64,000 bases of DNA, taken from positions 114,079-178,078 of the forward strand of contig QPMI01000641.1 in the NCBI GenBank assembly GCA_004431415.1, read 5' to 3'. The notes below the pieces were generated by a model that was not told where the DNA came from, made no database searches, and was given only the letters and a program-made list of their open reading frames with translations. This DNA comes from Cyanophora paradoxa CCMP329. Lineage: Eukaryota > Plantae > Glaucophyta. Below, in pieces: positions 13,054-47,049 of this stretch; the stretch's first letter is position 1; every line of letters starts with the position of its first letter. The translations under genes and the position numbers were made by a program.

Positions 13054-13458
13054 AGCTCAGCACTGCGCCGTGTCTCCAAAAAAATACCCGCGAAAAAAAT
13101 CAAAAACAAATCAGAAAACAAACCATTCCCAGTAACCCAATCTTGAATATCAGTAAATCTCAGTAAGCCTCAGTAACCAAAATTGAATTAATCGAAGTTA
13201 TATCATAATCTCGATTAATTATATCTTATCGAAGTTATATCTTTTTTATGCGCCGTGTCTCCAAAACAATTCCCAAGAAAAACAAACCATTCACAGTAAC
13301 CCAATTCCAAATCTCACTAAATCTCAGTAAGCCTCAGTAACAAAAATCGAATTAATCGAAGTTATATCTTAAATCTTATTTATCGAAGTTATATCATTAT
13401 CTCGATTAATTATATTTAATCGAAGTTATATCCTTTTTATCCGCCGTGTCTCCCATGA
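13054..13458. repeat. Left TIR of element B
   Basis: Reverse complement of 46645-47049. Internal duplication of about 190 bp, three copies of CGCCGTGTCTCC and repeated ATCGAAGTTATATC. Confidence 0.95.
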
Positions 13459-13459
13459 T

Positions 13460-14521
13460 TTAGCGTTTCGTTAAACCACTTCTCAAATTGTATCTCCTCC
13501 GAATTACATTACTCCGATTGGGTTTTATGCCTTCTTTTGCTACCAATCGATTCACTTTATTCGTTTTATTAACCTGCTGAATCCGTTTTTGTGATGGTAT
13601 CTTAATGATATCATCTTTATTCACCTTTTGCAATTCTTGTTTCTTAAATCTCCTCTTCACTTCTTTTGTTTCCTCACCATCATTATCTTCAAGCACTTTG
13701 AAACGATTCCTATCAGCCTTTGCAACAGTGTAGACCTTCTGACTGAATTGCGCACCTTCTTTTTCAAACAATCCCTTTGGTTGCAAAACTCGAACTGTGT
13801 CTCCTGGTTTCACTTGATTAGTATCAGCCTCCTTTACACGATTGTTGTGAACAGTATCCCTCATGTAAATAAATAACTGTTTATCTTCATTTGTATACAC
13901 TGCATTTGGAGAGTCATTTTTCAATGCAGAATGGGGACTGCTATTATACAAGTCAATTACATCACTAAGTAGATCGATCCATTTCGTGGTTCCCTTTGCT
14001 GTCATCGATTTTCTGAGATACTGTTTGAAAGTCCTAGTGAACCTATCAATTATCCCCAGTTTATCTCCTACTGTGATGTGGTCATCCTTTGCCACATCTG
14101 TGTATAGCATTACACCATGTTCACTGCACCAATTTCGGTATACTGCCTGGGAAAACTCATTATCCCCAGAGAGAGCATTAACTTTGCCTGCTTCTTGCTT
14201 GAACCTATTTAAAATGCTCGGGATCTCACTGCTGTTTTTAAAAGGATAAACAAATCCTTTGCGACTAAGTATGTCTACGAAACTAAGCATTTTGAAAATG
14301 CCATTGTTGGCAGTCTGAAACCCTCTGAAATATGTTATATCGATTTGAAACGATCTAGGCTTTGCCACTATGCGAAGAAACGATTTGGGTTTCCTTGGTT
14401 TCTTGTAAATTTGCTGGAGTTCTGAGTTTTTGAACTTCTTTTTCAACTCTTTTTCATCAAAACTCACTTTTTCATTAATCAGTTTCTGCCTATACTTTTT
14501 GAATGATAATACACTATCCAT
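13460..14521 (-). CDS. Retroviral-like (rve) integrase, element B
   Basis: FQID...VDILSRK...SGDNEF...IIDRFTRTFK...YNSSPHSAL...PGDTVRV motifs of Polinton/PLV integrases. Confidence 0.9.
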   Translation of the reverse strand: MDSVLSFKKYRQKLINEKVSFDEKELKKKFKNSELQQIYKKPRKPKSFLRIVAKPRSFQIDITYFRGFQTANNGIFKMLSFVDILSRKGFVYPFKNSSEIPSILNRFKQEAGKVNALSGDNEFSQAVYRNWCSEHGVMLYTDVAKDDHITVGDKLGIIDRFTRTFKQYLRKSMTAKGTTKWIDLLSDVIDLYNSSPHSALKNDSPNAVYTNEDKQLFIYMRDTVHNNRVKEADTNQVKPGDTVRVLQPKGLFEKEGAQFSQKVYTVAKADRNRFKVLEDNDGEETKEVKRRFKKQELQKVNKDDIIKIPSQKRIQQVNKTNKVNRLVAKEGIKPNRSNVIRRRYNLRSGLTKR

Positions 14522-16051
14522 TATTGGGCGGCACAGTTACACTTAATATGAGAGAGGAAACAATTTTTGGTAATGTGAGCCACAGCATTATTAATTCGAT
14601 CTACCGAAATATCTTCAAAGTCCATGGCATTGTAGCATCGCAGGCAATGCCCATACTGCTTCCCATATCGCTGCTTGATCCAATCCCATGTGATGTAATC
14701 ATGCTCATCGAATTGTCTGTTTGCTGCTCGGTCCTGATCCTTGTAAGTCGAAATCTTCTCGTTATTCTCTCTTTTCCACACTTTCCAGTGAGCCATTTCG
14801 AAATTATCATGGTAAATAACAACATCATCCAGCCTTGTGGTTCGAGTGAGAGCAACATATAGCCACTTCTTTGAAACAAATGGCGCCCCAGTTTCGAACA
14901 CGACTACCCTGTTCCCTTTGCAGCGAATCGTATCACCTTGAACAACATGGCAGGTGTTTGCGTAAGCCAGGGCGAAATGTTTGACTGCATCCCTGCTGAG
15001 AACAATCTCATCCTTCTTGTTGGCAATGTCAGCAATAATGAAACTGTCCTTTGAGAGCTTGACAATCTTGTAGACAAATCCATTATGAACTATCTTCCCA
15101 CCCTTTGCAATACGAGTCTTTGCAACAACTTTGATCCCGCCAGCATAAATGGAAACATTATCCCCGTAGTTCATTTTGTGAAGGGCTAGGTTCACCTCTG
15201 CACCCTTGCGGTTTGTATACACAATGCCTTTATCTGTCTTTGCCAATTCGTCCACAACCTTGAACCCGTACTTTGCTAGGACCTCACTTACACTCAAACC
15301 TTTCTCGAATAAATCAATTCGAATTTGCTCAACCTTTCTGCGATCTTCCTCAGTCTCATGGCGCTTGTTCACTTGGAGTAACAATTCGTTGGGGAACAGG
15401 CGATGGAGGATATCAAGGTAATACTCATCTTGATCAACACTCATATCCTGAATGGGTGGGTTCTGATACGGGTCACCTGTGGCAATGTATACCTTATCTG
15501 GGAACTGCTCATTCATGATGTGGTCCAGGGCTGCCAGTTCTCCAATCTTAAACTGACAGATCTCATCAATAACAATGCAATCAAATTCTACCAAACCAGA
15601 TGCATTCCCTCCTACGATTTCATCCATGTTCGACTCATCGATTTTGAGATGAAGGGCATCATAGATTGTCTTCACATTTTTCAATCCTTGCTCTTTCATT
15701 TCCTTCACTCGCTTGTTGGTCGGAACAATATAGAGGGGATTTTTGAAACGCTTCCCATATTCAACTGTCATGTGAGTCTTTCCAACTCCTGGAACTGATC
15801 CGAGAAGAACCCATCGTTTTTGTGTAGCCAGCAAATCACAAATCGCGGTTGTGTCATACTCATCAACCACAGAGTGTTTGGTATAACTGTAGTTCTCGAT
15901 TTTCACAAAGTCAGTCGCTCTCTCAAACTTTCCGTAACGAATTCGTTTTGCCTCGAGGTCTTTCTTCTCACCTGAAAACTTTTTAGAAAAATTGGGGCAG
16001 CATTTCACACTGAATTTTCCAATATTCTCAAAGGCATTGCGATCGAATGAC
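14521..16051 (-). pseudogene. 3' part of element B PolB-SF1 helicase-HNH fusion (helicase plus HNH-like domain)
   Basis: SF1B motifs GSVPGVGKT, IVIDE, GDPYQ, TCHVVQG, LYVALTR. C-terminal CLRC...SVDRINN..H...N...HIKCN. Confidence 0.9.
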
Positions 16052-16428
16052 TGTTGTAAAGGGGAGGACCCCACCCCAAACCAGACCACCGACTAGTCTG
16101 GTTTTACCTTCAGGGATCCACCCCTTCTAGCGTCATCGATCAACAATTTCCCTGAAAGATTTTTAGACGTGCTCCAAGTAGATGTGTTGATGGGAAAAGC
16201 ATGGATATGGAGAATGGAGGGCGTGAGGGTGAGTACAGAGAAGCTAAACGAGGAAAATGTGTTAAGCTATAGCTAGGCGATATTAATGAGTACAGAGAAG
16301 CTAAACGAGGAAACGTGTTAAGCTCTAGCTAGATGTAATTGATGTGTACAGAGAAGCTAAACGAGGAAAAAGCGTTAAGCTATAGCCCCACGTAAGGACG
16401 GGCCCCCAGAGCGGTCTGGTGCGGCCTC
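16052..16428. repeat. Left TIR of element C
   Basis: Reverse complement of 36930-37306 with a few mismatches. Contains three tandem units of about 57 bp (GTACAGAGAAGCTAAACGAGGAAA). Confidence 0.95.
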
Positions 16429-16771
16429 ATTCCACTTGATCTGGTTGCTTTTCCGAAACTGGAGTCTTCTCCTTTCTGAAACTTGATAGCAGGGACTTCT
16501 TTCTTTTCAGGGGCTTTGGGATATTTGGGGGTGGCCAAGACGATCTTCGGTTATCAGAATCAAGCCATGGTACAGGTGAGTCGGATCGTGTAAAAGGAGA
16601 ATTGGACCTTGAAGTCCCAGGTGTGTTATTAGGCGATAGCTGAGTATCAGGGGTGCGCGACCCCTCAGTGTCAGATATTTCGAGGTTAATAGTTGTCTCG
16701 CAGCAGCTGCATTTCAATTTGCTGGTGACGTTGAGATGGAACATCTCCATGCATTTACGGAGCAAATCCAT
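16427..16771 (-). CDS. Hypothetical protein (Cys cluster, Ser/Pro-rich, basic NLS-like KPLKRKK)
   Basis: ORF fills the gap between the TIR and the fibre cassette, with AT-rich upstream sequence. Confidence 0.55.
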   Translation of the reverse strand: MDLLRKCMEMFHLNVTSKLKCSCCETTINLEISDTEGSRTPDTQLSPNNTPGTSRSNSPFTRSDSPVPWLDSDNRRSSWPPPNIPKPLKRKKSLLSSFRKEKTPVSEKQPDQVE

Positions 16772-16802
16772 CTAGTATGGGCTATATATAAAAACAAAGA
16801 TT

Positions 16803-17636
16803 CTATGGGTTGGGATCAGCCCCACCAATTGGGAAATAACGATTCGAATTGAACGTTTCCCCGTACTTGACACCATTTGCAATTGCATCTGTTCTTTCGG
16901 CAAATAGAATAATTTTATAGGCCCCCATGAGCGTAGCCCTCACAATAAACTGGTAATCTTCAACCCCCACTGGAGTAGAATGGAAAGCGACACCAAAATT
17001 GTCGATCGGATTGATTAAAACAGCTATGTTTGGCCGGAGAGCATCATTCCTCCTACAAAGGAAATAGATATCAGGGGGAATATCAACAACACTCTTGAAG
17101 TGATTTCCGAGTGGCTGAACGTTATCTACGATCGATGTTTGCTCATTTATATTTAGCGTGAATAGTTTGATGATATAAGGCAAATTCATACCAGGAACAT
17201 ACGTTCTGATTCTTTCATTAGTGTTTTCAGGGTTAGGTTGATCATTAACAAATATAGGGGCGCAAGCAGCGCCACCCACTCTCAGACCATCTCCAATATA
17301 AGCACCTCCAAATCTGCAGGTCACAGCTCCTATTCTTGATTCGTAGGTAAAAGTATTAACCTTGTTAGCATCGTCATAGCTATCAGGATTGCCATAATGC
17401 GCATTAAAATTAGCATTAGTTACAAGGAGATTAGTCGTTTTAATAGTGCCATTATTTTTGTCACATCGAACCTCTCCTAAACGTAAAATGTGATTTTCTC
17501 GGAAGGTGTTTAGAGTTGGCTGCTGCTCCGTTGATTGTAGGCCGGGGACGTCATCTGAGATGGCGTGCTGCAGGACGTGATTTACTGGGGCCGCAAGGGT
17601 TAAAGTTGGAACAACAATTCTTTCAACAGCTTCCAT
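16803..17636 (-). CDS. Putative fibre/receptor-binding paralog 1
   Basis: Shares the N-terminal module (H..SD..PG..STE...F....LR..E.R.D.N.G..KTT.L.V.N...GGAYIGDG) with three neighbours. Confidence 0.65.
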   Translation of the reverse strand: MEAVERIVVPTLTLAAPVNHVLQHAISDDVPGLQSTEQQPTLNTFRENHILRLGEVRCDKNNGTIKTTNLLVTNANFNAHYGNPDSYDDANKVNTFTYESRIGAVTCRFGGAYIGDGLRVGGAACAPIFVNDQPNPENTNERIRTYVPGMNLPYIIKLFTLNINEQTSIVDNVQPLGNHFKSVVDIPPDIYFLCRRNDALRPNIAVLINPIDNFGVAFHSTPVGVEDYQFIVRATLMGAYKIILFAERTDAIANGVKYGETFNSNRYFPIGGADPNP

Positions 17637-17664
17637 TTTAGAAAACAGAAGATAAAACTTTCAC

Positions 17665-18513
17665 TCAAGCTATAGGATTTTCAGGACTGATCTCGTCGTA
17701 CATATTATTCAGTGCTGGATCTGGGTTTAGTCCTCTAGTAGCCGCTGATGCAGCTACATCGGAGCGATAGCCGATGATTAGGATAGAATACCTGCCTATA
17801 GCGGTAGCATATAAATCGAAAAGATGCCTTGTATTAATATTACGAACAACGTATCCACGTCCTGCGTGTCCTAGACCCTGTACAAAGAACGTATACACAT
17901 GCCCTATCTGATCATTTTGATCTTGACAGAGCGATTGAAGTGCCTTGGGGATTTCTCTGTTTGAAAGCAACCTCTCACCATCCAGACCATTAGGTGTACT
18001 TGAATTAGCTATTGTTATCTCAACTTCTACTAAAGCCTGTGCATAGGGAAGGTCACAGCAGGGTACATACATGCGAACTCGTTTACGATTTTCAGCATTC
18101 TCTAATGAAAAGTCCGGGACATCATTAATGGCAATCGATGACGAAAGCCCTCCACTAACTCGGCAGGCTCCGGTAATAGCTGCCCCTCCGGAACGCACAG
18201 TGAGAGCAGCAGTGTTTTGATCGTAGTTTATGCTTCGGAGGTCAACACTGTACGAATCAACTCCCCCTGTTATGGGCTGGGAGAAATTCGCGTTTGTAAC
18301 TAGTAATCTAGTTGTTTTTACAACCCCAGAGTTTTTATCTGCCCGCAATTCTTTACACCGAATCACTGATCTCTGATCAAATGCATTAGTAGAGTTTGGT
18401 CGCTCGGTGGACTCTAATCCAGCAATAGCATCGCTAACTTCATGCTGCCTCATATGGATGGCTGGGGAGCCCAGCGAGTAGATAGGTAGTTGGACCCGAT
18501 TGTACTCGGTCAT
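17665..18513 (-). CDS. Putative fibre/receptor-binding paralog 2
   Basis: Same N-terminal module. C-terminus related to paralog 1 (RVRMYVP..DLPY; Y.I.....R.D). Confidence 0.65.
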   Translation of the reverse strand: MTEYNRVQLPIYSLGSPAIHMRQHEVSDAIAGLESTERPNSTNAFDQRSVIRCKELRADKNSGVVKTTRLLVTNANFSQPITGGVDSYSVDLRSINYDQNTAALTVRSGGAAITGACRVSGGLSSSIAINDVPDFSLENAENRKRVRMYVPCCDLPYAQALVEVEITIANSSTPNGLDGERLLSNREIPKALQSLCQDQNDQIGHVYTFFVQGLGHAGRGYVVRNINTRHLFDLYATAIGRYSILIIGYRSDVAASAATRGLNPDPALNNMYDEISPENPIA

Positions 18514-18567
18514 TTAATAGAACCGCGAGAGAAAAATAAATGAGGTTGCAGACAAGAGATAGCTTCA

Positions 18568-18831
18568 CTACTCTTCTGTGACATTGTTATACTCGATGCC
18601 TTTCTTTACTGTTCCCCTTTGGAATGCCTGTAACACAATGGCTTCCTTTGAGGTTGGTATTTGAACTCCTGATGAGATGCAAGATTGAATCTCTTTTTGA
18701 ACAATCTCCTCAATTGCAATTCTTGCCCTGTTATGAACAACATTATCAATCCAATCCTGAACAGAAGCAGCGCAATATTCCATTCCCAACTTTTCAATAT
18801 CTGAGAGAGCCACTTGGTATATATTCGACAT
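18568..18831 (-). CDS. Small protein resembling phage fibre-associated proteins
   Basis: MEYCAASVQDWIDNVVHNRARIAIEEI pattern, recalled from small ORFs beside fibre genes of marine phages (not verified). Confidence 0.55.
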   Translation of the reverse strand: MSNIYQVALSDIEKLGMEYCAASVQDWIDNVVHNRARIAIEEIVQKEIQSCISSGVQIPTSKEAIVLQAFQRGTVKKGIEYNNVTEE

Positions 18832-18852
18832 TCCTATTTTATAGAGAGAAAA

Positions 18853-19875
18853 TTATGTGAGACTGAGAAGCTCACCTGTGAATGTTGTTCGATTTGTGTA
18901 GCTACCCCCATTATTTGTTACAAGTGTTACATACTCACCCATAGCAATGTTGAGAATTACACTAATGTAAAGCGGTTTATTCGTGAGAGTGGAGTTATTT
19001 TGTGTTATAATACTTTGACCCCCTGGGTCTTGGTCATTTACTTTTAAAGAGAGACTTATTGGACTACTTGATGTTGAATGGGTATATGCTGTAAATCTGT
19101 AATGACCTGCAACAGGAGCAGTGAACCTACCATTACCCACATTGAATGCCCCCCTATTATTCACAAACACTACCCCCCAATTGATAAGAGCAGTTTCACT
19201 GGTAGCAACATGAGGATAATTAAGTTGAACAGAAAATCGAGGCTGAAAATCATATTTTAAATAACAATTTGTATTAATTGTCAAGCGATTGGCTTCAAGA
19301 GTAGCCAAAACATCACTATTGCGTTTCAAAACAAGATTTACATCTGCTCCTGTATCGATTTCAGGTGTGACCACCTTGGAAGTTGCTGTTATTATCGATT
19401 GTGTTGTTTCTGGAATACTTATGCCTCCATGGGCTGTTACTGAACCTGTAAATGTGCTTGTTCCTGTAATGTTCACTTGATTGGCTGTTAGAGTTCCATC
19501 AATCCTTGCCCCATCTCCAATATATGCCCCTCCACTTCTAACTGAAAGAGCAGCATTATTAATTGTATTATCAAAAGTAACTATTTTGGGTGTGGTGAAC
19601 CCTCCCACATTGTCATAAATTGCTGTATCTGAAACAATTTGACCTGATTGGACTTGGTTCTTGTTAGATACAATGAGACCTGTGGTTCTCACTTTTCCCC
19701 CATTGCGATCACATCGAATTTCTTTACATCTAATCACAGAGTTCTGTGAAAACGAATCAGCCCCTGTTGTTTCTGTGCAAATAAACCCAGGTGTTGCATC
19801 TGTTACTGTATGGTTCAGTTGATGTATTTTTGGGGCGGCATAACAGAAAACAGGAACAGCAATTTGTGTAGACAT
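18853..19875 (-). CDS. Fibre protein with C-terminal C1q-like domain (paralog 3)
   Basis: Shared N-module. C-terminal PRFSV...VFVNNRGAFNVGNGRFTAPVAGHYRF...FTGELL is a C1q signature. Confidence 0.8.
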   Translation of the reverse strand: MSTQIAVPVFCYAAPKIHQLNHTVTDATPGFICTETTGADSFSQNSVIRCKEIRCDRNGGKVRTTGLIVSNKNQVQSGQIVSDTAIYDNVGGFTTPKIVTFDNTINNAALSVRSGGAYIGDGARIDGTLTANQVNITGTSTFTGSVTAHGGISIPETTQSIITATSKVVTPEIDTGADVNLVLKRNSDVLATLEANRLTINTNCYLKYDFQPRFSVQLNYPHVATSETALINWGVVFVNNRGAFNVGNGRFTAPVAGHYRFTAYTHSTSSSPISLSLKVNDQDPGGQSIITQNNSTLTNKPLYISVILNIAMGEYVTLVTNNGGSYTNRTTFTGELLSLT

Positions 19876-19897
19876 TCTTTATACTATACAGATAATA

Positions 19898-20968
19898 TTA
19901 TGTAGCACTAACAAGATCACAAGAAAGATAGTATCTGATATCAAATTGAAGAGTGGCACCAGAACTATTGCGCATATCAAAGGAGTCACCTTGAATAAGA
20001 GAAAGTAAAACTTCAAATGAAATTGGAGTTACAAATGTATTAGAAATCCCCGCGGACGGCATTGAAACTCTTGTTTGGAGGGTTGTAGGATTTCCATTTA
20101 AATAAATGCTGGTAGCAATATGAGTATAAGAGGTTGTGCCAGCTCTCATGCATGCAAAGAACACCCTATATACTCCGGAAACAGGAGCTGTAAATTTTGT
20201 GGATGCAAAGTTTCCCTCATTGTTTACAAAATAAGCTCCACCTGTAAAGGAAAATGCTGTTGCAGTGTTAAGTATTACTGTCCCTGTCATACCAGGAGCT
20301 TGTCTTGATATATTCATTCTTGGACAATAGGTTCGTTTCAGACCACTATTTTCCGGGATTGTGATTACATTCAGATCTGTTATTGTCTTTTCGAGAGTGA
20401 AAATGGTATCTCCGTTTCGTTTGTAATTCATATTCACATTTGTCCCATTGTCTATCTCAGGTGTTTGAACTCTTGTGGTTGCTTTTCGAGTTTCAACGCT
20501 AACAGTTCCCGAGAGTCCGCCATTGAAGGTCATCAATCCTGTAAATGAACTTGTTCCATTCACATTAAATTGATTTGCTGTGACAGTCCCCACCACAATT
20601 GCTCCATCACCAATGTATGCCCCTCCACTCTTGACCACAAGAGCCGAGTTATTACTTGTGTTATCAAAAGTAACTATCTTTGCTGTGGTGAATCCACCCA
20701 CATTATCATATATTGCTGAATCGGGGACTACCTGCCCTGCTTGAACTTGATTTTTATTCGAGATTATAATGCCTGTGGTTCTAATCTTGCCTCCATTTCG
20801 ATCACATCGAATTTCTTTGACTCTGAGTATACTATTCTCTGTGAAAGAGGTATTGCTTGAAGTTTCTGTGGAAATATACTCAGGGGTTGAATCAACTACT
20901 CCATGAGAGGTGCTGTGAAGTGATTTTGCGGCGAGTTCATAGTTTGGGATTTCTAATAGAGAGGTCAT
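19898..20968 (-). CDS. Fibre protein with C-terminal C1q-like domain (paralog 4)
   Basis: Start taken at MTSLLEIP. N-half highly similar to paralog 3. FVNNEGNFASTKFTAPVSGVYRV. Confidence 0.8.
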   Translation of the reverse strand: MTSLLEIPNYELAAKSLHSTSHGVVDSTPEYISTETSSNTSFTENSILRVKEIRCDRNGGKIRTTGIIISNKNQVQAGQVVPDSAIYDNVGGFTTAKIVTFDNTSNNSALVVKSGGAYIGDGAIVVGTVTANQFNVNGTSSFTGLMTFNGGLSGTVSVETRKATTRVQTPEIDNGTNVNMNYKRNGDTIFTLEKTITDLNVITIPENSGLKRTYCPRMNISRQAPGMTGTVILNTATAFSFTGGAYFVNNEGNFASTKFTAPVSGVYRVFFACMRAGTTSYTHIATSIYLNGNPTTLQTRVSMPSAGISNTFVTPISFEVLLSLIQGDSFDMRNSSGATLQFDIRYYLSCDLVSAT

Positions 20969-20987
20969 CTTTATAATTACGAAATAG

Positions 20988-24186: not shown

Positions 24187-24210
24187 TTTTATATAAGCCC
24201 CCTTTTAAAA

Positions 24211-26050: not shown

Positions 26051-26169
26051 AGTTATATATATTCATGCAAGAAATTCGGTGACTCGCTCAGTACAGCTCA
26101 GTGCAAAGCCAAGAAGGCGAAAACCAAGATGGGCATTCTTGCCCTTCGGGCTCCTTAGGCGCAGCGTCG

Positions 26170-36500: not shown

Positions 36501-36816
36501 CTTCGACTTCCTGAAATATGTTCGGAACGTCCTCTAGGATTGCCTCCTCGGCTTGAACAGCGTTTGCACGCGCTGCTGCTATTGCACCAAAATGCCCCGC
36601 TACCCTTGACTCAGGCAAACGACGAGCAGGACGAACTGTGCTCCGCAGTCGCAGCATTGTCGCAATGTATTTACGAATCGTTCCGGACCAGGTCCGTCCG
36701 CTTGTATCGGTCAGACGAAGCAGCTTGTTTCGAAAGGAGCCACGAATATATCCACGCTCATAGAGTTCGATCGCTAAATTCCTAAGCTCAGCTTTGAGTA
36801 ATGCGGTGCTTGCCAT
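33490..36816 (-). CDS. polB: Protein-primed family B DNA polymerase
   Basis: Exonuclease: ADFET, YNGSGFDY, Y..DDV. Polymerase: YGGR, DVVSLYP, K..MNGLYGK, YTDTDS, KLY, KGIP. Confidence 0.96.
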   Translation of the reverse strand: MASTALLKAELRNLAIELYERGYIRGSFRNKLLRLTDTSGRTWSGTIRKYIATMLRLRSTVRPARRLPESRVAGHFGAIAAARANAVQAEEAILEDVPNIFQEVEDVRVTEVLDGVLSHRHHRYPNLLFDKHVFAIAPNWNPEEVKTIAIDILDHLGVAGMIGRFVIIRFRFEKNQMYTTQLIQIGQNGLRVLTESLDERIAQWMAAQMSYEEDDFWVVTSIEVLIADNAAGALGNIPKLPFYHRTVDKLYCPMSPANDCVLECFEYVKLNPRGLSLKTVIEKLAKAPYTSIREQMGLAKGMISLDCRTVETICRFYSIDATVTEWEATKFKELFRTELSFSKRAILCNIDGHCFLVKNEATLSLEKCPCCGKMFDLATHRANCSFCNQCKRAYDPRKDHTSECQKMTRRQNVIGRQIKPCKPETEFSALDSVVCADFETFAPDSKTHVPYAMSYCTIDNGEISPCEVVYGEQTLETFMRWLEQRNENTTLIFYNGSGFDYIFVYKWLVLNRAETAVNVLRSNGKIKSMSWKTGAGGKISTFDPCLHIQASLKSACKDYGCTNVKGDFDHNKIKTWEDVERFKSEWEPYVEDDVKAMTELYIKYSTAVFDLYGLNVNTTQTTTASAMAFQIHRQTLINPISLPTYKDDQVLRQAIYGGRCLPFKRKFVSSGPDDYLVDLDVVSLYPTAMYENWFPTGKYKHITSPDALDRFCKFVQSSQRSLMFIACVDVTIPQNLLLSPLPRHESNLGWSNLKPIERGWYTSVDINRAIKLGCEVTKVHEVYLFDGKDQMFKTYMERMYCQKARSRKGTAQYATSKISMNGLYGKYCQRPVITTSDLVTSYKRFREIQRSAQITDISIESDTRMFVTYEIEDSKRDRAVTKPCFIGAFILSYSREIMDRFLVEIGAYWSIDAMPFYTDTDSLIVHRKYADLLRAKGYMKPAYDIATATDADICRQELGKLDCDIKGRIVEAYFIGPKLYTCSFVRDSDAQLDLHVRAKGIPQSWIQEHWLPDETEARKETIANRTALDAYKRMLEDSTYQPQCMIESKLARVYRPNGRQRDSGIGFSSIIQIPFARQLNKSQYTKRKIIPDEYYSSVPHEYRASESN

Positions 36817-36929
36817 TATACTAGGCTTTCAGAATGAATATTGGGAGGCCTATTGTTTTTGGCGTTTCAACGCATCAATCTCTGATCGATAACATAGTGT
36901 GCGTTTCCTTTATAACGTGTCCATCTCCA

Positions 36930-37306
36930 GAGGCCGCAGCAGACCGCTCTGGGGGCCCGTCCTTACGTGCGGCTATAGCTTAACGCTTTTTCCTCGTTTA
37001 GCTTCTCTGTACACATCAATTACATCTAGCTAGAGCTTAACACGTTTCCTCGTTTAGCTTCTCTGTACTCATTAATATCGCCTAGCTATAGCTTAACGCA
37101 TTTTTCTCGTTTAGCTTCTCTGTACTCGCCCTCACGCCCTCCATTCTCCATATCCATGCTTTTCCCATCAACACATCTACTTGGAGCACGTCTAAAAATC
37201 TTTCAGGGAAATTGTTGATCGATGACGCTAGAAGGGGTGGATCCCTGAAGGTAAAACCAGACTAGTCGGTGGTCTGGTTTGGGGTGGGGTCCTCCCCTTT
37301 ACAACA
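36930..37306. repeat. Right TIR of element C
   Basis: Reverse complement of 16052-16428. Confidence 0.95.
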
Positions 37307-39870
37307 AATGACACTGGGGCAATGGGTTCATAAGCGATCCCATAAACACAATCGGTGTTCAAAGCGAGTGGTCGGATCTGCTGTTTAGCGAGTTCGACAC
37401 ACTTCTCATACATACACATCCTCATAATTGACAAGAGGGTAGTGTACAATGGCATGAAGCCATCAATGAGCTGCTTTTCTGCTACCTGATTGACATAGTA
37501 GATATGGGGTTCGGTCATCTCTTCCTCACACAGAACGAACTCTGTCTCCTCATAAGTGGCAAGAGTCTCACCAAAGAGGTAAATTTTAACCTCCCCTCCG
37601 TTCTGTTTCTGGAACTCGATCGCATCGTCTCTGTTGTGGAAAATGGTGGTTTTCACTCTGCTATTTCGTTGCTTTCCAGTTTGCCCAATTGCACTCACCA
37701 AGATCTGCTTCTTATCAACAGGATCGAGGTCGCTATCTAAGATTCGAGCAACTGTGTTGCCTGCAAGGTTGGGAATGAGTTTGTAAGGTCGCAGAACCGC
37801 TTTGATGGAGATGTCATCCTTGAAATCCTCGAAATGCTTTTTGAGAACCAAACCAGGAACGACATTGTACTTGGAATCAATGATCATCCTCTTGTATCTG
37901 TTGTAGGTGTTTGCTTCGTACTCCTTTCCGTTCTTGTCTTTGGCTTTGAAAAAGTATTTGTCGTCCAGTTTCACGTAATAGAAGCTGTATTCCTCGATTT
38001 GCTCTGCATCTGTGATTGTCACACTCTTGAAGACATCGAACTTGCTGAGAACAGGAACGAATTTGATCATCAAGGCTACAATGTAAGGGTATGCTTTGCA
38101 CATATCGAACTCGTAAATATCTGTGTTATAGCGAATTTCATCAAAGGTCTCCTCATCCACATCAAAGAGACCACGAAGGGCAGTCTGCACTCCATTCTTG
38201 AATGCATTTATGGTTTGCTCATTGTAAGTACTCTTGTTGGAAGTGTTGATTAGAGACCTATACATATCCAGATTTAGTTTCTCGAATTTATCTCTGTACT
38301 CAGCATTCTTGAAGCTAATCTCGAAAGCTGTTTCCACATCTGTATCGTTACCAGGTGGGGTCACGACAACATCCTTATCGTCAATAGTGAAACGAATATG
38401 GGTTGCCTTTCCGATTTGGGAGAACCCAGGTTGGACCTGATAATTATGCACCACAATGAACTCTCTGAGTAGTTCATCCAGTGAACCACCATAGCAGATT
38501 CGAATGCTCGATTGGTTCTTTGGATTGTCAGACCTGACAATTCTCAGAATGTCATCGGGATTTGTGGCAAACTCCTTGAACCTTCTTTGCTTTATAATCT
38601 TGTAACGAGAACTGAGTGGAACATTGGTATCTTTTGGCTTGGAGCCATTGAAGGACTGTGTGAGAGCCTTAATATTGTGATTTAACAAATACATGTGACC
38701 ATTCTCAATCTTCACATATGCAACAGAAGGGGTCAAGTGTGTGTTCCTGGTCTTGGGCAGGAAAGTCAGTTCAGGGACAGGGGTTCTGTCGTCCTTTCCA
38801 ATTGTAACCATGCCTAGGCGCAGTGGGTCAAGAACCTTCTCCGAAATGGACTTGAAAGAAATGCCCCAATCATCTCCTTCAACAGGGTCTCGCCCATTCA
38901 CCATCTTAAAGAGTCCGTTGTAAGACCAATCGATTCGCTTGTATTTCCCTTTGGTCTTAGCCTTCTCAAACGCTCCTCCAAACCATTTGATGAGGACATC
39001 GAAAACACACTTCCCAACCTTGAATGAATCACCTTTCAAGAACATTTCCTTGAATGTGGTGGCTTGGGGGTTCCCTTCGTTTTTAATGAAATTCGAAATA
39101 ATCATTGGAGCGTTTGTATTGTCTCTGAGGACTTGTTCATTTCTTGGGATGTATTCTTCATTATCTGTCGTGATGACTCTTTCAATTGTCATAATATCGG
39201 GGTAGGTATCTTGCTCAATTAGTTTTAGGTAGCGGAAATCTTGATTGGTCGAGTTAAACTCAATAACTGCTGCAATAAATTCAGCAATGACAGTCCCCTC
39301 AACACATGGGAACGTATTGAAGGTGGATTGAACCAGACCGAGAGCATTCAGAAAAGCTGCCTTGGTACACTGGATACCAAAGGGGCGATTGTTCCGAAGC
39401 CTCTTCGATTCAATGTAGGTCACACCATTCTCAGTGACCCTGTTTGCATTTGCAGGGGTCTGTTCTCCCTCTTGCAACTCACGGAAGAGTCTCACATTCA
39501 GGGTGACCATGTTTCCAGGTGAGTTTTCAACAAACTCACGGAGGTTAGCAATCATCTGCTGGAAAGGAGTCAAGCGCTTCCGCTCTCTCGCTTGCTCCGC
39601 TTTCTTGTTTTGCTTCTCAACATTCTTAGCGGCTCTCTCAGCCCTCTTCTCCTTCTTCTCCTGCTTGCGATACAAACGAGGCTCTACGATACCTCTCAGT
39701 GTATCTCTGATATCAATCAACTTTGGAATTCTAATTGCTTTGAAAGTAAATTCTCTCAAGAAATAGATATCCTGCTCTCGGGTCAATTTGTCTTCTACTT
39801 TTGCTTGCATGTAGTAGCCAAGAATCTCATCCTGCAAATTTTTCGAAATTCGATTACTTGGTCGAGGCAT
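37307..39870 (-). pseudogene. 5' part of element B PolB-helicase-HNH fusion (divergent PolB domain)
   Basis: DMCKAYP, K..L...IG..GK and NTDC motifs. Joins in frame (..APVSF|DRNAF..) to 16045-14521, giving about 1362 aa. Confidence 0.85.
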
Positions 39871-40111: not shown

Positions 40112-40369
40112 TTAACAGAGATATTTCGATTTGCGACCACGGTTAGAATACGGGACACCATAGAGATACTTCACAAAGCAGACTGCATTGGAAGCATAGA
40201 GACGCTGGGAACTCTCAACGATCTTCATGGCTCTGTAACACTCATCAGTATGGTATAAGTCACGCATTTGCTTTGCAAATCTGGCATTGTACTTTTTCAA
40301 ATATTCCTGACCTTTTTCAGTTTTACGATAACGATAAGTAGCACGCTTCTGAGCCTCACTGATTGGCAT
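40112..40369 (-). CDS. Small basic protein, element B
   Basis: MPISEAQKRATYRYRK.., AT-rich upstream sequence. Confidence 0.65.
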   Translation of the reverse strand: MPISEAQKRATYRYRKTEKGQEYLKKYNARFAKQMRDLYHTDECYRAMKIVESSQRLYASNAVCFVKYLYGVPYSNRGRKSKYLC

Positions 40370-40718: not shown

Positions 40719-41480
40719 TTAACGGCGATAACCGGGTCTTATACCAAGCTTGGCGAATCCAGAGACCATTGGGGCAGCATTTGGAATCGAGTTGACTGGA
40801 TCAGCCTGCGAAGTGGCAACCCGAAGGATCGACTTATTGAGAACCGGCAAATCCGTTTTGTTGGAGTCTTGATACTCAATGGTCTTTGCAATCAATTCTG
40901 TAGGTGAGTCTTTTGCCACATGAACAGGTTCGGGAATAACTTCATGGGTTACTTCTGGTTTCTTCTCAACCTTTTCCTTTGTGATTGGCTGTTCCTTGAT
41001 CTTGTTTTCGTTTTTGGTCTCTGCTGCAATACCATCAACAAGACTCTTAGCATACTGATATGTTACAGATTTCAGTCCACCAGTGGTTGAACGAATAAAG
41101 TAGCGGTTGCGATGGTCTTTCTCGGAATAGGTTGAGTAGAGTCGCTCACCACCATCAAGCAGTTTCAGCAGTGTCGATGATGAGGCAACCTTGTCCTTTG
41201 TGGATGATTTGAACTGTCCTTTCTTGATTCCTCGTTTGGCTCCGGGCATGCGGTTCAGTGGGACTTGGTCAACAAGGGCATTATCATCATTACTGTTTTT
41301 CGTAGTGGCTTGGGTGAATTGGTTTCGTTCTTTATGGACTTCCTTTTCGAGGTCACCAGTTCCGTATGCAGCGAGTCCTTTCGATTTCTTATACCAGTTC
41401 CTTCCATTCTCACCATTGCCAACATCCGCTTCAGCGGCTGGTTTGGCTAAGAAATTCTTGGGTTGAGTCTTGCGAGCCAT
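40719..41480 (-). CDS. Lys-rich basic protein (possible virion core protein), element B
   Basis: Conserved with the element A copy, with many synonymous differences. Function is a guess. Confidence 0.8.
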   Translation of the reverse strand: MARKTQPKNFLAKPAAEADVGNGENGRNWYKKSKGLAAYGTGDLEKEVHKERNQFTQATTKNSNDDNALVDQVPLNRMPGAKRGIKKGQFKSSTKDKVASSSTLLKLLDGGERLYSTYSEKDHRNRYFIRSTTGGLKSVTYQYAKSLVDGIAAETKNENKIKEQPITKEKVEKKPEVTHEVIPEPVHVAKDSPTELIAKTIEYQDSNKTDLPVLNKSILRVATSQADPVNSIPNAAPMVSGFAKLGIRPGYRR

Positions 41481-41516: not shown

Positions 41517-42404
41517 CTATGACCGTGAGAACGGCAGGTAGAGTCCCTCCAACTCTTTTATGACATTCTTCAATGCTTTTTTCGTCAGATCTTTATCATC
41601 TTCAGTAATCAGTTCAAGAGTCATCGACCAGTCGGTAGTAATGTCTGCTGTGGCTCCATTCCAGTAAGAAAGTCTCACATCTAGAGTCTCAACCTCAACC
41701 AAGCCATTCTGCTCGTGAACGATCATGGAATTATTCGATGAATCATATTTTAATAGACTGCCAACCGTTTGGTCAATCTCAATTTTCGCGATAGCATTGT
41801 TATCTCGTTTGTTATTGCTCACATATCTTCCTTTCAGTGGATCAACATGAAGAAGCAAATAGGAATTAAATAGTAGATCTAATGGCATTTCACTATCAAT
41901 GTAGTGAGCATAAGTAAAGGCTCCAACTGTGACATTAGATGATAGAGGACTCGATTGGTACAGTGTGTTAGCATTTTCAAAACCACAGAAATTGGCTAAG
42001 AGTTGAGTGTTCATAGTGATTGAGAATGGAACCTCACACATGAACCTTAGAAGCAATGTTGTGGGATCATAGGTTACATAGAAATGGCGAGTGTAAGTTC
42101 CGCCACCCGCTTGATTATAGGGCTGGGATCCAATGCGAGCGATCAGATAATTCACCAGTGAATCCGGTGTATATGCACCTCGGAGGACTTCGTTGTTTCT
42201 ATTCTTTGGGTTCCCAGCATTATCGAGTGTTTGTGTGGTGAGGGTTCCTACTTCAGAGAGGTTGTAAAGATTGTGAAACATCTCAAAGTTCGTTACTCGA
42301 CAGGCTCTGACCTTTTGGATCGCATAAGGGAGTCTGTATGTGAAATTAGTTGGGGTTCCATCCGATCGGTCCCTGGAATCAATATTGAGATAGTAACGCG
42401 TCAT
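41517..42404 (-). CDS. Minor capsid protein (penton), element B
   Basis: Paralog of 10961..11863. Confidence 0.8.
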   Translation of the reverse strand: MTRYYLNIDSRDRSDGTPTNFTYRLPYAIQKVRACRVTNFEMFHNLYNLSEVGTLTTQTLDNAGNPKNRNNEVLRGAYTPDSLVNYLIARIGSQPYNQAGGGTYTRHFYVTYDPTTLLLRFMCEVPFSITMNTQLLANFCGFENANTLYQSSPLSSNVTVGAFTYAHYIDSEMPLDLLFNSYLLLHVDPLKGRYVSNNKRDNNAIAKIEIDQTVGSLLKYDSSNNSMIVHEQNGLVEVETLDVRLSYWNGATADITTDWSMTLELITEDDKDLTKKALKNVIKELEGLYLPFSRS

Positions 42405-42456: not shown

Positions 42457-43683
42457 ATGGCACTCACTGGAACTACCCTGAAGGAACTCCTCGTAACTCC
42501 CGGTTCCGATCAAATTTATCTTTCCCCTGGTCTCCAAATCGGAACCAACCCCAAATACAAACCATTCCTCGAGCAAGTTCGTCCCCGGGGCAACACTTTT
42601 GGCTTCAAGAATACCGCTTACTTTGATCTACCTCGCAAGCAACTCCTTGCTGGTGTTTCGCTCTATTTCAAGATTGCCACTGGTGGTGGTGTAGCCTGCA
42701 CCCTCCCCAATGGTGGTTCTTCTTTTATTAATGAGGTCCGTTTCGTTCATGGTGGTTTCAAGTATATTATCCCTGGTGATTGGATCACTGTAAACGCCCT
42801 GGTCGATAATGATCACGCTACCATGAGCAGCATGTATGCTTCTCTCGGTTACTTCAAAGAGACAGATCGTGAAAGCACAGATGAAGCAATGGAATACATC
42901 GTTAGAATCCCCGCTGCTTTCTGGGAAGAAGCTTATTTCCCATTATGTACGCTAGCCGATATGCCAACAATCGAGGTTGATTTCCGTGATGCTGCGATTG
43001 TCCAAGTTCCGGCTGGTGGATCTGTAACCTTTGCGGATTGCTCTCTGATCTGCCAATTCGTAAACATTGCTTCGGCTGAGGCTGAGACACTCCTTAAAAT
43101 GGCGAACGAACAAGGTGGCATTCGCATCCCGATCACAGAGGTCATTCACAAGAAGACCCGAGCGCTCAAAACCGCTGATGCTGGTGAATCTGTTGAGGTT
43201 ACACTCGCTAATGTTTCTGGTCTGGTTCACTCGATTCTGATGACTGTTCGAGAGGTGAACAAACTTAACACCTACACTCACTCGGATTTCTGCGGTCATG
43301 AATCTGCTGTTAAGATTGATCAGTTCCAGATCTTCCACAACAATCGCTCCCTGGATATATCTAACAAACCCATTTCCGGTTTCCTCTCTGCTGTCAATCA
43401 CATTCCTTCTCACTACAAGGGTGTTACTGTGGGCAATACCACGTACGGATTCGAGTCTGGAAATGTTTACGGAATTGTTCTTTCCAAGTCTGGAAAAGAT
43501 TCGCTTCGGAACTCGGTTATGGGTTACCAGGATTTCTTCAACAGCAGCTCGAGTTACATGGATCTCACTGTTTCCGGATGCACTGATGCCGCTCCTGTTC
43601 AGGTTGATATCTATGCCCTCCGACACAATGTTATGGTACTTAATGGCTACAACATCTCTACCCTGAAAGTCTCGAACTTCTAA
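42457..43683 (+). CDS. Major capsid protein, element B (intact)
   Basis: 408 aa, between penton and ATPase, highly conserved with the A copy. Confidence 0.85.
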   Translation: MALTGTTLKELLVTPGSDQIYLSPGLQIGTNPKYKPFLEQVRPRGNTFGFKNTAYFDLPRKQLLAGVSLYFKIATGGGVACTLPNGGSSFINEVRFVHGGFKYIIPGDWITVNALVDNDHATMSSMYASLGYFKETDRESTDEAMEYIVRIPAAFWEEAYFPLCTLADMPTIEVDFRDAAIVQVPAGGSVTFADCSLICQFVNIASAEAETLLKMANEQGGIRIPITEVIHKKTRALKTADAGESVEVTLANVSGLVHSILMTVREVNKLNTYTHSDFCGHESAVKIDQFQIFHNNRSLDISNKPISGFLSAVNHIPSHYKGVTVGNTTYGFESGNVYGIVLSKSGKDSLRNSVMGYQDFFNSSSSYMDLTVSGCTDAAPVQVDIYALRHNVMVLNGYNISTLKVSNF

Positions 43684-43763: not shown

Positions 43764-44522
43764 ATGGATAACACAGTAAATCTTGATGATATTCCGGAGT
43801 TCGATCCGAGTAAGACGGTTCGAATCCCGACAAGAATTTTGAATGTTGGTCGCTCCAATACAGGTAAGACAATGTTCACAAAATACTTACTTTACGAGCT
43901 TCGTGACAAGATCGATCAAATCGTTATATTTAGTTCAACAGCTTTTACTGGACAATTCAATGACATCACCCATCCCGATAACATCTATGAAGAGTGGGAT
44001 GATAACATTGTTTTGAGATTGATCAGTATGCAAAAGAAACGAATTGAGAATAACGAAAAGCGAAATAACCTAGTTATCATACTCGATGACATGATAGGTT
44101 CAAATTTGGATATGCATAATTCGGCTGTGTTATCTAAATTAGTAACGAGTGGAAGACATTATTCAATCTCGGTAATCTTTAATGTTCAGCGTTTGTGTTC
44201 TATTTCTACTACCATTCGTCGCAATGTGGAGTTCGTTGTATTTTTCAATATTCTTGGGAACGAGAAAGAGTTCAATTGCGCCTTTGATGAGTACAATGGT
44301 GGTTTGGATAAGAAGACCTACAAGGAATTGCATAGACTATGGGGTTATAATTACCAAACTGTCATAGCTAGCCTGCAAGGTTATGATATCAAGACCTATA
44401 CTGATAGAGCAGTACTCACTGATGATGATATAAAGGGCTTTAAGAAGTTTGTGAAGAGAAAAGCAATTAAAAGGAGTCAGATGGCTCGGATTCAGCGAGA
44501 AATGACCACAATCAGTGTGTAA
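43764..44522 (+). CDS. Packaging ATPase, element B
   Basis: GRSNTGKT, IILDD, SGRH...Q, IRRN. Confidence 0.92.
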   Translation: MDNTVNLDDIPEFDPSKTVRIPTRILNVGRSNTGKTMFTKYLLYELRDKIDQIVIFSSTAFTGQFNDITHPDNIYEEWDDNIVLRLISMQKKRIENNEKRNNLVIILDDMIGSNLDMHNSAVLSKLVTSGRHYSISVIFNVQRLCSISTTIRRNVEFVVFFNILGNEKEFNCAFDEYNGGLDKKTYKELHRLWGYNYQTVIASLQGYDIKTYTDRAVLTDDDIKGFKKFVKRKAIKRSQMARIQREMTTISV

Positions 44523-45000: not shown

Positions 45001-45145
45001 ATGTAAACCTGGGGAGAAGTTGAAGGGGGATACATTGAAAGTCAGTGAGCCAATCAGATTGCGTCACACATATATACATATACATCATGACAATATACAC
45101 ATCGCCGTGATCGTCATAATCTCCCGAGTCACGTGGTATGTCATA

Positions 45146-46349
45146 CAAGATCCGTGCTCCTGCGGAGCACTAAGTACGGCGAAGCCTCGCGGACGCCCTC
45201 GCGGTTGTCACAGTAGGCCTATAGGGCACTCAGCGACTGGCCAGCGGCCTGGCCGATCGCGAACAGGTTTCTGGCTGGAAGCTGGCTGGCTGACGGCCAG
45301 TCCAGCTACCGCTGGCCGGCTAGAGGAATATAACTAGAGGAATATTAATGTACTGAGGAAATAAAGGGAGGCCGGAGCAGGTTGAGATTAGAGGAGATGA
45401 ATTATATATAATATTGTTGAGAGGGAGGCCCGGGAGGGGCAAGGTTCTCGCGGCCAGGCGCATGCACAGAGCTTGCGAATCGCTTAAACAGAATCTTGAA
45501 TGCATATAGCTATAGCATCGATGTGCGGGGCTGCGGAGCTCGAGGCGAGGGCGCGCGGAAAGATGTGCAGGTCCATGCAGGATCGCATTTTCGGGGTCGG
45601 CTGGGTCCTCGCGGCCCGTCGCATACGCAAAGCGTGCGGAAGACTTTGCCTACATCTTAAATGCTTATGCTATCGTTCCGCGCATGCGCCGCGGCGTGGG
45701 CGCGCGGAAAGATGTCAGGGCGCGTGCAGGATCGAATTTTGGCCGTCGGGTACCTTCCTGCGCTGTTCCGGCTCCGAAAAGCGGATTTCGGGGGTGCGCA
45801 GGCCCTGCTATGTCCATGCGCGCCAGTACGCATCGATTGCGCGCGTCGCGGGACCGGGCGGGACCGGCTAGCGCTGGATCAAATTTTCGGCCGACTCTTC
45901 GCACTGGAGCGTCGACGGCGCTTGAAATCGAGCTTGCGGCGATGCGCTCGCCCTCGCGCGGCATTCTGTATCGTTCTGGGGCGTCCCTGGCGCGATTTCG
46001 TCGCGGGACCGGGCGGGACCGGGTCCCACCTTCTGACTCGGACTGCATTTGTCGGAGGTTAAGTACCGGAATTGATCCAGAGGGAAATTCGATTTTCGCG
46101 CGACGCCCACGGGCGAGCGGTCGTCTTAGGGGAGCCACGACGCTAAAAATGGATCTAGAGAGGTCTGTGGGGGTTAGGGTAGCTGAGTATTAGCGGCAAT
46201 CGCGTCCGTGTCGAGGCAGAATTAATAATTCGTCCTCGAGGGAGTGCGACGCGGAAATTATTTAGCAGGGGGGATCTTGAGTGGAAAAAAAGGTTAAAAA
46301 AGGAATTTATATCGGCGGTTTTTGGGTTTGAGAAAGAGGCTTCGCCTGA
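45146..46349 (-). mobile_element. Non-autonomous Helitron/Helentron-like element (1204 bp)
   Basis: Minus strand A|TC...CTTG|T with no TSD. Hairpin GTGCTCC-TGC-GGAGCAC at 45154-45170. 11-bp asymmetric IR GGCGAAGCCTC at 45178-45188 and 46336-46346. GC-rich within AT-rich flanks. Confidence 0.75.
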
Positions 46350-46644
46350 TATATCATATACATATACATCGTCATCATGACGTCATATATGAATATATAT
46401 CACATATACACAAATTGATATGTTATAGGTTTGACTATAAATCGATTTCCTATGATATATATGATATATATTACAGTGATATATTGACGTATATACGATT
46501 CAAAAACAATTAAAATTCTATTGTTTTTATTGTCGTTTCTATTGTTGTTTCTAGTGTAACAAATACAGTAAAAAATCGTTCAAAAAATACAGTAAAAAAT
46601 GAGAGGTTTTTCTTTCGAGGTTTTAACTAAACTTACTTAGTTAT

Positions 46645-47049
46645 TCATGGGAGACACGGCGGATAAAAAGGATATAACTTCGATTAAATATAATTAATCG
46701 AGATAATGATATAACTTCGATAAATAAGATTTAAGATATAACTTCGATAAATTCGATTTTTGTTACTGAGGCTTACTGAGATTTAGTGAGATTTGGAATT
46801 GGGTTACTGTGAATGGTTTGTTTTTCTTGGGAATTGTTTTGGAGACACGGCGCATAAAAAAGATATAACTTCGATAAGATATAATTAATCGAGATTATGA
46901 TATAACTTCGATTAATTCAATTTTGGTTACTGAGGCTTACTGAGATTTACTGATATTCAAGATTGGGTTACTGGGAATGGTTTGTTTTCTGATTTGTTTT
47001 TGATTTTTTTCGCGGGTATTTTTTTGGAGACACGGCGCAGTGCTGAGCT
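46645..47049. repeat. Right TIR of element B
   Basis: Reverse complement of 13054-13458. Confidence 0.95.

What the first reader, a model, noticed from the sequence alone, without database searches (positions are those of the whole stretch)
13054..47049. Element B reconstructs to a minimal PLV of about 11.5 kb and 7 genes, integrated in its own relative
33,996 minus C (21,255+6) minus the Helitron (1,204) gives 11,531 bp. Genes: integrase, Pol-helicase-HNH, small basic ORF, basic protein, penton, MCP and ATPase. No maturation protease or fibre is visible. It lies in the same orientation as A and supplies an intact copy of the MCP it disrupted.
Basis: partly seen in the sequence, partly recalled or inferred. 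Interest (0 to 1): 0.7.

Follow-up and report, generated by a model that had tools for sequence, protein, structure and literature searches.

The report
Compact 11.5-kb Polinton-like virus, multi-copy
An unusually small integrated DNA virus (about 11.5 kb, six core genes plus one variable gene) of a known Polinton-like kind sits inside a related virus in what is likely a glaucophyte alga's genome; near-identical copies elsewhere lack the two insertions that break this one, so it likely spread recently as a compact unit.

Summary
B (13054-47049) has 405-bp TIRs and a 5-bp TSD, and splits A's MCP in frame. Subtracting C (21,255+6) and a 1,204-bp Helitron-like insert leaves 11,531 bp. Public contigs back both subtractions: one contig in 3 of 3 DNA runs crosses the C site, at 10-23x host-flank depth, and contigs skip the 1,204-bp insert.

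B encodes an rve integrase, a 1,362-aa vOTU/pPolB-palm/SF1-helicase (Tlr1-type) protein, a basic protein, a penton, a double-jelly-roll MCP and an A32 ATPase. The small ORF looks variable. B shares gene order and strong purifying selection (dN/dS about 0.05) with A, so its right half is natively compact.

The parts are known. A nearly identical Cyanophora paradoxa MCP is already in print, PLVs normally lack the protease, and PLV-in-PLV nesting has precedent. 'Supplying' A's MCP has no functional support. What stands out is the size: below the 14-40 kb usually quoted for PLVs, with a full gene set. No complete second copy or longer parent could be examined, so a deletion origin in the left half is not excluded. 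Verdict: new compact variant of a known kind; interest 0.45.

The parts
13049..13053 (.). Left TSD of B (GGCGC), inside A's MCP gene; repeated at 47050-47054
13054..13458 (+). B left TIR, 405 bp, begins AG, has internal ~160-bp repeat
13460..14521 (-). rve-type integrase, 353 aa; acidic triad D61/D120/D159 by motif (third residue Asp where C has Glu); stop lies 1 bp from the TIR
   Evidence: Pfam rve_3 E 0.0025, below gathering score; tblastn to C integrase E 3e-13; motifs
14521..16051 (-). 3' part of Pol-helicase gene: SF1 helicase plus C-terminal HNH-like Cys/His motif; stop overlaps the integrase ATG by one base
   Evidence: Pfam AAA_19 5e-8, Viral_helicase1 4e-6; PHROG Dda-like 1.7e-18; HNH by eye only, Pfam blank
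16052..37306 (.). Element C: separate 21,255-bp pPolB/rve Polinton-type element with 377-bp TIRs and 6-bp TSD, inserted in B's Pol gene; carries C1q, H-lectin and patatin genes
   Evidence: bridged by C-free contigs
37307..39870 (-). 5' part of Pol-helicase gene: candidate vOTU (C288, H392), pPolB palm motifs A (589), B (721), C (838, NTD); no exonuclease I motif; 1,362 aa in total by arithmetic
   Evidence: ESM Atlas DNA_pol_B_2 clusters 0.92-0.94; motifs; length
40112..40366 (-). Small basic ORF, 84 aa, pI 9.8; region skipped or replaced in part of the family
   Evidence: joint 40117-40378 in 3 of 3 DNA runs; no family hit
40719..41480 (-). Basic protein, 253 aa, pI 9.7; likely virion core or DNA-binding protein (inferred)
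   Evidence: 82% identical to A's copy over 109 codons, dN/dS 0.058; pI
41517..42404 (-). Penton (minor capsid protein), 295 aa
   Evidence: ESM Atlas 0.97 to a Sputnik V18/19 cluster and viral clusters, recognition score below threshold; 70% to A
42457..43683 (+). [quoted passage not shown]
   Evidence: AF2 pTM 0.68; Foldseek PBCV-1/EhV E 1e-17; VIA Z 25.2, rmsd 3.3, 336 aligned to PBCV-1
43764..44522 (+). A32-like packaging ATPase, 252 aa
   Evidence: Pfam Pox_A32 1e-15; 83% to A, dN/dS 0.049
45146..46349 (-). Non-autonomous Helitron-like insert, 1,204 bp, 58% GC, A|T site, 5' TC, 3' hairpin then CTTG, no TSD; very high copy
   Evidence: (skip joint; depth 25,767 against about 20 in X1)
46645..47049 (-). 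B right TIR
10596..13053 (.). Host element A, part left of B: 5' part of basic gene, penton, MCP codons 1-379
   Evidence: 75% nt to B 41152-43592
47050..49096 (.). Host element A, part right of B: MCP C-terminus (stop 47141-47143), ATPase 47280-48032, terminus at 49096 with B-like terminal motif

Best explanation
B is an integrated Polinton-like virus of about 11.5 kb that likely belongs to a natively compact lineage and likely spread recently, being predicted to copy itself with a Tlr1-type polymerase-helicase, insert with its rve integrase and package into its own capsid. Shown: ends, TSD, gene set, MCP fold, C-free and insert-free copies, purifying selection against A. Inferred steps: (1) the vOTU domain cleaves a terminal protein from the 1,362-aa protein; (2) the exonuclease-less palm with the SF1 helicase replicates the linear genome from the TIRs; (3) the A32 ATPase fills a DJR/penton capsid, with the basic protein as core; (4) the integrase inserts without needing homology, giving the 5-bp TSD. 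This copy landed in relative A's MCP, likely because viral DNA is a large, harmless target, and it carries C and a Helitron-like insert; C breaks its Pol gene. It has no fibre, lipase or transcription genes, so entry and transcription would rely on the penton and host, or on a helper.
For: C-free contigs in 3 of 3 DNA runs, at depth 446, 962, 38.6 against 19.2, 94.7, 2.62 for a host-flank contig: ratios 23, 10, 15. In X1 these contigs differ from B at 2 of 2,105 and 0 of 567 bases, and the integrase contig at 0 of 1,761. Genes are tightly packed: Pol stop overlaps integrase start, integrase stop is 1 bp from the TIR, and gaps in the capsid module are 36, 52 and 80 bp. A, at dS 1.5-2.4, has the same order basic-penton-MCP-ATPase-end, the same 52-bp penton/MCP gap and no long ORF in the 1,064 bp after its ATPase (B: 1,323 bp). 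dN/dS is 0.049-0.058 for MCP, ATPase and basic gene; penton dS is saturated. The domain order matches TP-vOTU-palm-S1H-(HNH/GIY) with RVE in PMC11071308. His-to-motif-A spacing is 197 aa in B and 327 aa in C, which has an exonuclease I motif.
Against: No second complete copy was read; the evidence is short-read contigs, and summed depth is not a copy number (host flank is also GC-richer). A's left half is outside the window, so compactness of the integrase-Pol-small ORF side has no outgroup. Capsid-module contigs run about 1.0-1.9x deeper than the Pol contig and are more fragmented, so some B-like capsid modules may sit in other, perhaps longer, elements. Polymerase activity of this class is disputed: inactive in PMC5499653, predicted active in PMC11071308. 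The Pol model failed (pLDDT 33) and vOTU/HNH rest on motifs only. The integrase is below Pfam's cut-off and has Asp at the third acidic position.
Confidence: 0.6

Rival explanations
1. B is an internal-deletion derivative of a longer close relative that lost accessory genes (fibre, lipase, others) between Pol and the basic gene, kept its core, and then amplified inside the genome like a transposon.
For: The variable zone lies there: joints skip 40118-40377 and 44701-45092. Capsid-module depth exceeds Pol depth. Neighbour C, with a 25%-identical MCP, has C1q, lectin and patatin genes in 21 kb; 89 of 156 glaucophyte elements score in the lipase column of PMC12220804 Table S6 by my column count.
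Against: No truncated or frameshifted remnant gene; no ATG ORF over 47 aa in 39871-40718. Right-half layout is shared with A at saturated synonymous divergence. The joints listed point to shorter variants, none to longer ones, though both tables were cut.
Confidence: 0.2
2. B is a compact helper-dependent satellite: it keeps capsid and replication genes but borrows fibre or entry proteins from larger co-resident PLVs such as C, or needs a giant virus for transcription.
For: No fibre, lipase or transcription gene. Several cultured PLVs need a giant virus (10.64898/2026.06.19.733378). A recent burst of near-identical copies fits reactivation and reintegration.
Against: No helper was identified. 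Penton-only entry or purely intracellular spread is not excluded. B and C capsid proteins are far apart (MCP 25%; penton not alignable), which makes sharing vertex proteins doubtful.
Confidence: 0.17
3. The nested arrangement is an assembly artefact made from collapsed repeats.
For: The family is highly repetitive and fragments in short-read contigs.
Against: Exact TSDs at B, C and the 131-10595 insert, with in-frame genes on both sides. Independent contigs reproduce the empty C site and the empty Helitron site.
Confidence: 0.03

Closest known systems
Cyanophora paradoxa endogenous PLV-type elements (PMC10120064 Tables S1, S2, S4; PMC12220804 Table S6)
   Same: An MCP listed there matches B's MCP at about 98% over ~300 aa (7 differences, counted by eye). 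366 MCP hits in two clusters (272 + 94). Of 156 complete elements: 139 A32, 85 rve, 34 SF1 helicase, 0 protease (my column count).
   Different: In the passages and tables I saw, no element sizes, gene maps or compact form are given for this host. The 33,996-bp span here would read as an ordinary-sized element unless the nests are removed.
Tlr1 element and pPolB-S1H ('Tlr1-like helicase') PLVs (PMC11071308, PMC5499653, PMC4642659)
   Same: RVE integrase, palm-plus-SF1-helicase fusion without exonuclease, C-terminal nuclease-like domain, MCP, mCP, ATPase, TIRs, no maturation protease gene.
   Different: B is 11.5 kb against 18-28 kb for the first PLV set. No Tlr6F or other accessory gene was found. 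No sequence-level link to Tlr1 was found or tested directly.
Nested virophages and PLVs of Halocafeteria seosinensis (10.64898/2026.07.28.741278)
   Same: PLVs (n=5) and virophages (n=9) embedded in other viral elements, including a three-level nest, plus transposon insertions.
   Different: Different host and families. Here the nest is in a 75%-identical relative.
Short EMALEs of Cafeteria (PMC8547959) and short cryptophyte PLVs (PMC12220804 Table S3)
   Same: TIR-bounded elements down to 5.5 kb (EMALE) and 6.8 kb (PLV) exist.
   Different: [quoted passage not shown] Gene content of the short cryptophyte elements was not checked.

Membership tests
Polinton-like virus (PLV) | Double-jelly-roll MCP, not of virophage type | tested here: met
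   VIA Z 25.2 PBCV-1, 24.1 faustovirus, against 14.4 Sputnik and 13.9 mavirus; Foldseek E 1e-17
Polinton-like virus (PLV) | Minor capsid protein (penton) | tested here: met
   ESM Atlas 0.97 to a Sputnik V18/19 cluster (26% of members carry the family; recognition 2190, under 2300); next to MCP; conserved in A. Not folded.
Polinton-like virus (PLV) | A32-like packaging ATPase | tested here: met
   Pfam Pox_A32 58 bits, cut-off 22.8
Polinton-like virus (PLV) | TIRs and short TSD when integrated | tested here: met
   405-bp TIR, 5-bp TSD
Polinton-like virus (PLV) | Forms virions | not testable with these tools
   Only indirect: intact genes, dN/dS about 0.05
Polinton-like virus (PLV) | Placement in a named MCP cluster or class | tested here: inconclusive
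   Published PLV HMMs are not on hand. Only 5 relatives at 24-28% among 1.84 billion representatives; near-identical to a C. paradoxa MCP in PMC10120064 Table S2
Tlr1-like (pPolB-S1H) PLV | pPolB palm fused to C-terminal SF1 helicase, exonuclease absent | tested here: met
   One frame across the C site, bridged by contigs; DNA_pol_B_2-like 0.94; SF1 hits; short His-to-motif-A spacing, no exo I motif
Tlr1-like (pPolB-S1H) PLV | vOTU and terminal-protein domains upstream of the palm | tested here: inconclusive
   Cys288/His392 motifs parallel C's; Pfam blank; fold failed
Tlr1-like (pPolB-S1H) PLV | C-terminal HNH or GIY-YIG domain | tested here: inconclusive
   CxxC..DRI..H..N motif by eye (motif reading recalled); no Pfam HNH hit
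Tlr1-like (pPolB-S1H) PLV | RVE integrase | tested here: met
   Pfam rve_3/rve weak, E 3e-13 to C's integrase, 5-bp TSD; third acidic residue is Asp
Polinton/Maverick sensu stricto (Polintoviricetes) | Full pPolB with exonuclease | tested here: not met
   No PF03175 hit, no exo I motif; C meets this feature, B does not
Polinton/Maverick sensu stricto (Polintoviricetes) | Capsid-maturation cysteine protease gene | tested here: not met
   All seven ORFs have no protease family hit and no further ATG ORF over 83 aa lies in B's gaps
Helitron (1,204-bp insert) | A|T site, 5' TC, no TSD, 3' hairpin | tested here: met
Helitron (1,204-bp insert) | 3' CTRR terminus | tested here: not met
   Ends CTTG; so 'Helitron-like'. 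The defining features of Helitrons are recalled.

The most novel reading that the evidence does not exclude
B is the leanest self-contained capsid-forming integrating dsDNA virus of the Polinton supergroup: six core genes in about 11.3-11.5 kb (integrase, polymerase-helicase, basic core protein, penton, MCP, ATPase), recently amplified to some 10-20 copies in a culturable alga, and so a natural minimal model of this supergroup.
Probability: 0.3. Interest if true: 0.7.

Novelty: new variant of a known kind. Interest (0 to 1): 0.45.

Why it matters
If the compact form is a true lineage, it lowers the working size floor for complete PLVs (14-40 kb in the abstracts of PMC10120064 and PMC12220804) and shows that the conserved morphogenetic trio plus one replication fusion, an integrase and a basic protein suffice. 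It gives a small target for two open questions: whether exonuclease-less pPolB-S1H proteins are active polymerases, and how fibre-less, protease-less PLVs mature and enter cells. It also shows that TIR-to-TIR lengths in catalogues can be inflated threefold by nested elements.

Tried and rejected
Whole genome: none held, so no census of copies. Relatives with genomic context: none found. Blank searches: protein word search with MCP, ATPase (E 1e-20) and Pol 250-860; IMG/VR with MCP, ATPase, helicase, P0005, P0004 and the terminal motif; JGI metagenomes with MCP and ATPase alignments; phage tblastn with Pol; PDB sequence search with MCP; exact look-up of 10 window proteins, 0 of 10 present. These searches have limited sensitivity and are no evidence that longer relatives are absent. 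The longest contigs of distant MCPs P0004 and P0005 are 15,531 and 11,726 nt but could not be fetched. Single-sequence fold of the Pol part failed (pLDDT 33). BLASTP of B Pol against C Pol and of B penton against a C penton candidate gave nothing significant. Expression: no RNA holder listed. Earlier findings: three look-ups, nothing. Rejected: 'no protease' as a novelty; functional rescue of A by B; same orientation as meaningful (one event, even odds); homologous recombination as the insertion route (clean 5-bp TSD and intact TIRs). Claim that the compact form is not in print rests on 7 full-text searches and term look-ups in 14 papers; bioRxiv supplements, the cut part of the PMC10120064 spreadsheet and the Zenodo sequence sets (which hold the 156 Cyanophora elements) were not seen and may contain it.
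Full report
1. Observation. The window holds a three-level nest. Inverted repeats mark B at 13054-47049 (405-bp arms, 404 matching) and C at 16052-37306 (377-bp arms, 372 matching). B is flanked by GGCGC and C by AATGAC. B interrupts the MCP of element A after codon 379, and A's frame resumes after the right TSD to a stop at 47141-47143. C interrupts B's Pol-helicase gene with the phase kept. A GC-rich 1,204-bp insert lies at 45146-46349. The sum 33,996 - 21,255 - 6 - 1,204 = 11,531 is right. About 78% of that is coding.

2. Independent check. Of 24 runs listed, 19 hold at least half of B's sampled words, all labelled organism A; one may be the window's own source. I laid three of these DNA runs, plus one possible RNA run in each call. 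In 3 of 3, a single contig lies on both sides of C with a 6-letter overlap, and its loose end at 16051 equals window 37313-37342. So copies with an unbroken Pol-helicase exist. Their depth is 23, 10 and 15 times that of a host-flank contig, against about 3-5 for A and 3 for C. These ratios are rough, because contig depth is not a copy number and GC differs. In X1 the contigs differ from B at 2 of 2,105, 0 of 567 and 0 of 1,761 bases, which points to a very recent spread. The 1,204-bp insert is skipped exactly in X3 and by a variant joint in all three, and has over 1,000 times host depth in X1. It has an A|T site, 5' TC and a 3' hairpin but ends in CTTG, so it is Helitron-like. Other joints skip the small ORF region (40117 to 40378, about half the Pol depth) and 392 bases of the right arm; the letters between are not known.

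3. Genes. The MCP model (8-sequence alignment, pTM 0.68) is a double jelly roll closest to NCLDV capsids, Z 25 against 14 for virophages. The ATPase is A32-like and the helicase SF1. The Pol part has no Pfam hit but resembles DNA_pol_B_2 clusters in the ESM Atlas (0.94; family on 14-45% of members). It shows palm motifs A, B and C, a Cys/His pair like C's, and 130 fewer residues between that His and motif A than C's exonuclease-bearing pPolB. This is the TP-vOTU-palm-S1H-nuclease layout of Tlr1-like PLVs (PMC11071308, passages). The penton call rests on the Atlas, position and conservation. The integrase is a weak rve match, clearly related to C's. HNH and vOTU remain motif-level calls.

4. 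Native compactness or deletion. A and B are 75% identical over the capsid module. Amino-acid identity is 70-89% with dN/dS 0.049-0.058 and dS 1.5-2.4. Both run basic-penton-MCP-ATPase-terminus, share a terminal motif (3 matches, 0 expected), and have no long ORF after the ATPase. The right half has therefore been compact for a long time. The left half has overlapping Pol and integrase genes and an integrase stop 1 bp from the TIR, with no remnants, but A's left half is outside the window. Capsid-module contigs are up to 1.9 times deeper than the Pol contig, so some B-like capsid modules may belong to other elements. No relative with context was found in any collection (see Tried and rejected). 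The deletion rival stays at about 0.2.

5. Host and prior knowledge. P0002, a relative of C's MCP, is a named Cyanophora paradoxa protein. Table S2 of PMC10120064 lists a C. paradoxa MCP about 98% identical to B's by eye, and that genome has 366 MCP hits (supplement rows). The host is therefore most likely this glaucophyte alga or a close relative. PMC12220804 Table S6 counts 156 complete glaucophyte elements with no protease in any of nine protease columns. PLVs lack the protease as a rule (PMC4642659 passages), Gosseviruses being the exception (10.64898/2026.06.19.733378, parts 1-3 of 5 read). Nesting of PLVs in each other is reported (10.64898/2026.07.28.741278 passages). Sizes quoted are 14-40 kb (abstracts), but TIR-bounded minima of 6.8-13 kb appear in 8 of the 11 PLV rows of Table S3 of PMC12220804, and complete EMALEs go down to 5.5 kb (PMC8547959 passages and section 7). 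A complete Drosophila adintovirus is 14.6 kb with twelve proteins (PMC8363768 passages). Other papers seen: PMC12721341 (part 1 of 7), PMC5499653 (passages), 10.64898/2026.10.13.758929, PMC11131425, PMC11296320 (passages), PMC13215967 (term look-up, no hits).

6. Mechanism. Most likely (0.6) B is a compact Tlr1-type PLV that replicates by protein priming with helicase help, packages into its own capsid and integrates without homology. Those steps are inferred from gene content and the papers cited; polymerase activity of this class is disputed between PMC5499653 and PMC11071308. Landing in A needs no special targeting: PMC10120064 Table S4 puts such elements at about 7% of that genome, and one event gives even odds on orientation. 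B's MCP does not rescue A in any shown sense. A's basic gene is split by a further 10.5-kb insert, this B copy lacks a whole Pol gene, and other A-type copies exist (one X16 contig runs 25 letters past the B site without the TIR, too short to count as a bridge).

7. Verdict. Real feature, correct arithmetic, known architecture and a catalogued MCP family. The compact, intact, recently amplified form is the new part. New variant of a known kind; interest 0.45; 0.7 if a census confirms it as a minimal autonomous lineage (probability 0.3).

Noticed in passing
window 131-10595: A 10.5-kb insert with 6-bp TSD (GCCATC), short perfect terminal repeats, 3.2-kb internal inverted arms (951-4141 and 6542-9695, 94%) and 705-bp tandem repeats, with no clear gene, splits A's basic gene. 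It looks like a non-autonomous foldback element. An X1 contig continues 124 letters beyond 10596, the length expected for the empty site.
   Followed up: partly
window 16052-37306: Element C is an intact-looking Polinton-type element with full pPolB, rve, A32, an MCP 25% identical to B's, patatin, HNH-AP2 and several fibre-like genes (C1q, H-lectin), and no protease hit; about 3x host depth.
   Followed up: partly
window 13460-14521: B's integrase has Asp (IDRF) where C has the usual Glu (IERF) at the third acidic position, and the high-depth contig carries the same sequence.
   Followed up: no
window 10580-16700, run X21 (RNA is a guess): Contigs of 710-1,397 nt match short stretches of the A-type MCP, integrase, helicase end and C's end at about 90%, then run on unlike; one continues the MCP past the B site. 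A weak hint that relatives, not B itself, may be transcribed.
   Followed up: no
window 37300-39500 and 44590-46334, run X20 (organism B): A second organism's run holds short, low-depth matches to B's Pol and to the Helitron-like insert; may be contamination or a related species.
   Followed up: no
window 54324-58079: GC-rich host genes with short introns: one starts with a glaucophyte-like transit peptide (recalled pattern), and a methyltransferase type 11 fragment hits Pfam.
   Followed up: no
window 44745-45017: Two 12-bp tandem arrays in B's right arm; a joint skipping 44701-45092 has higher depth than the Pol contig in 3 of 3 runs, so most family members differ here.
   Followed up: partly
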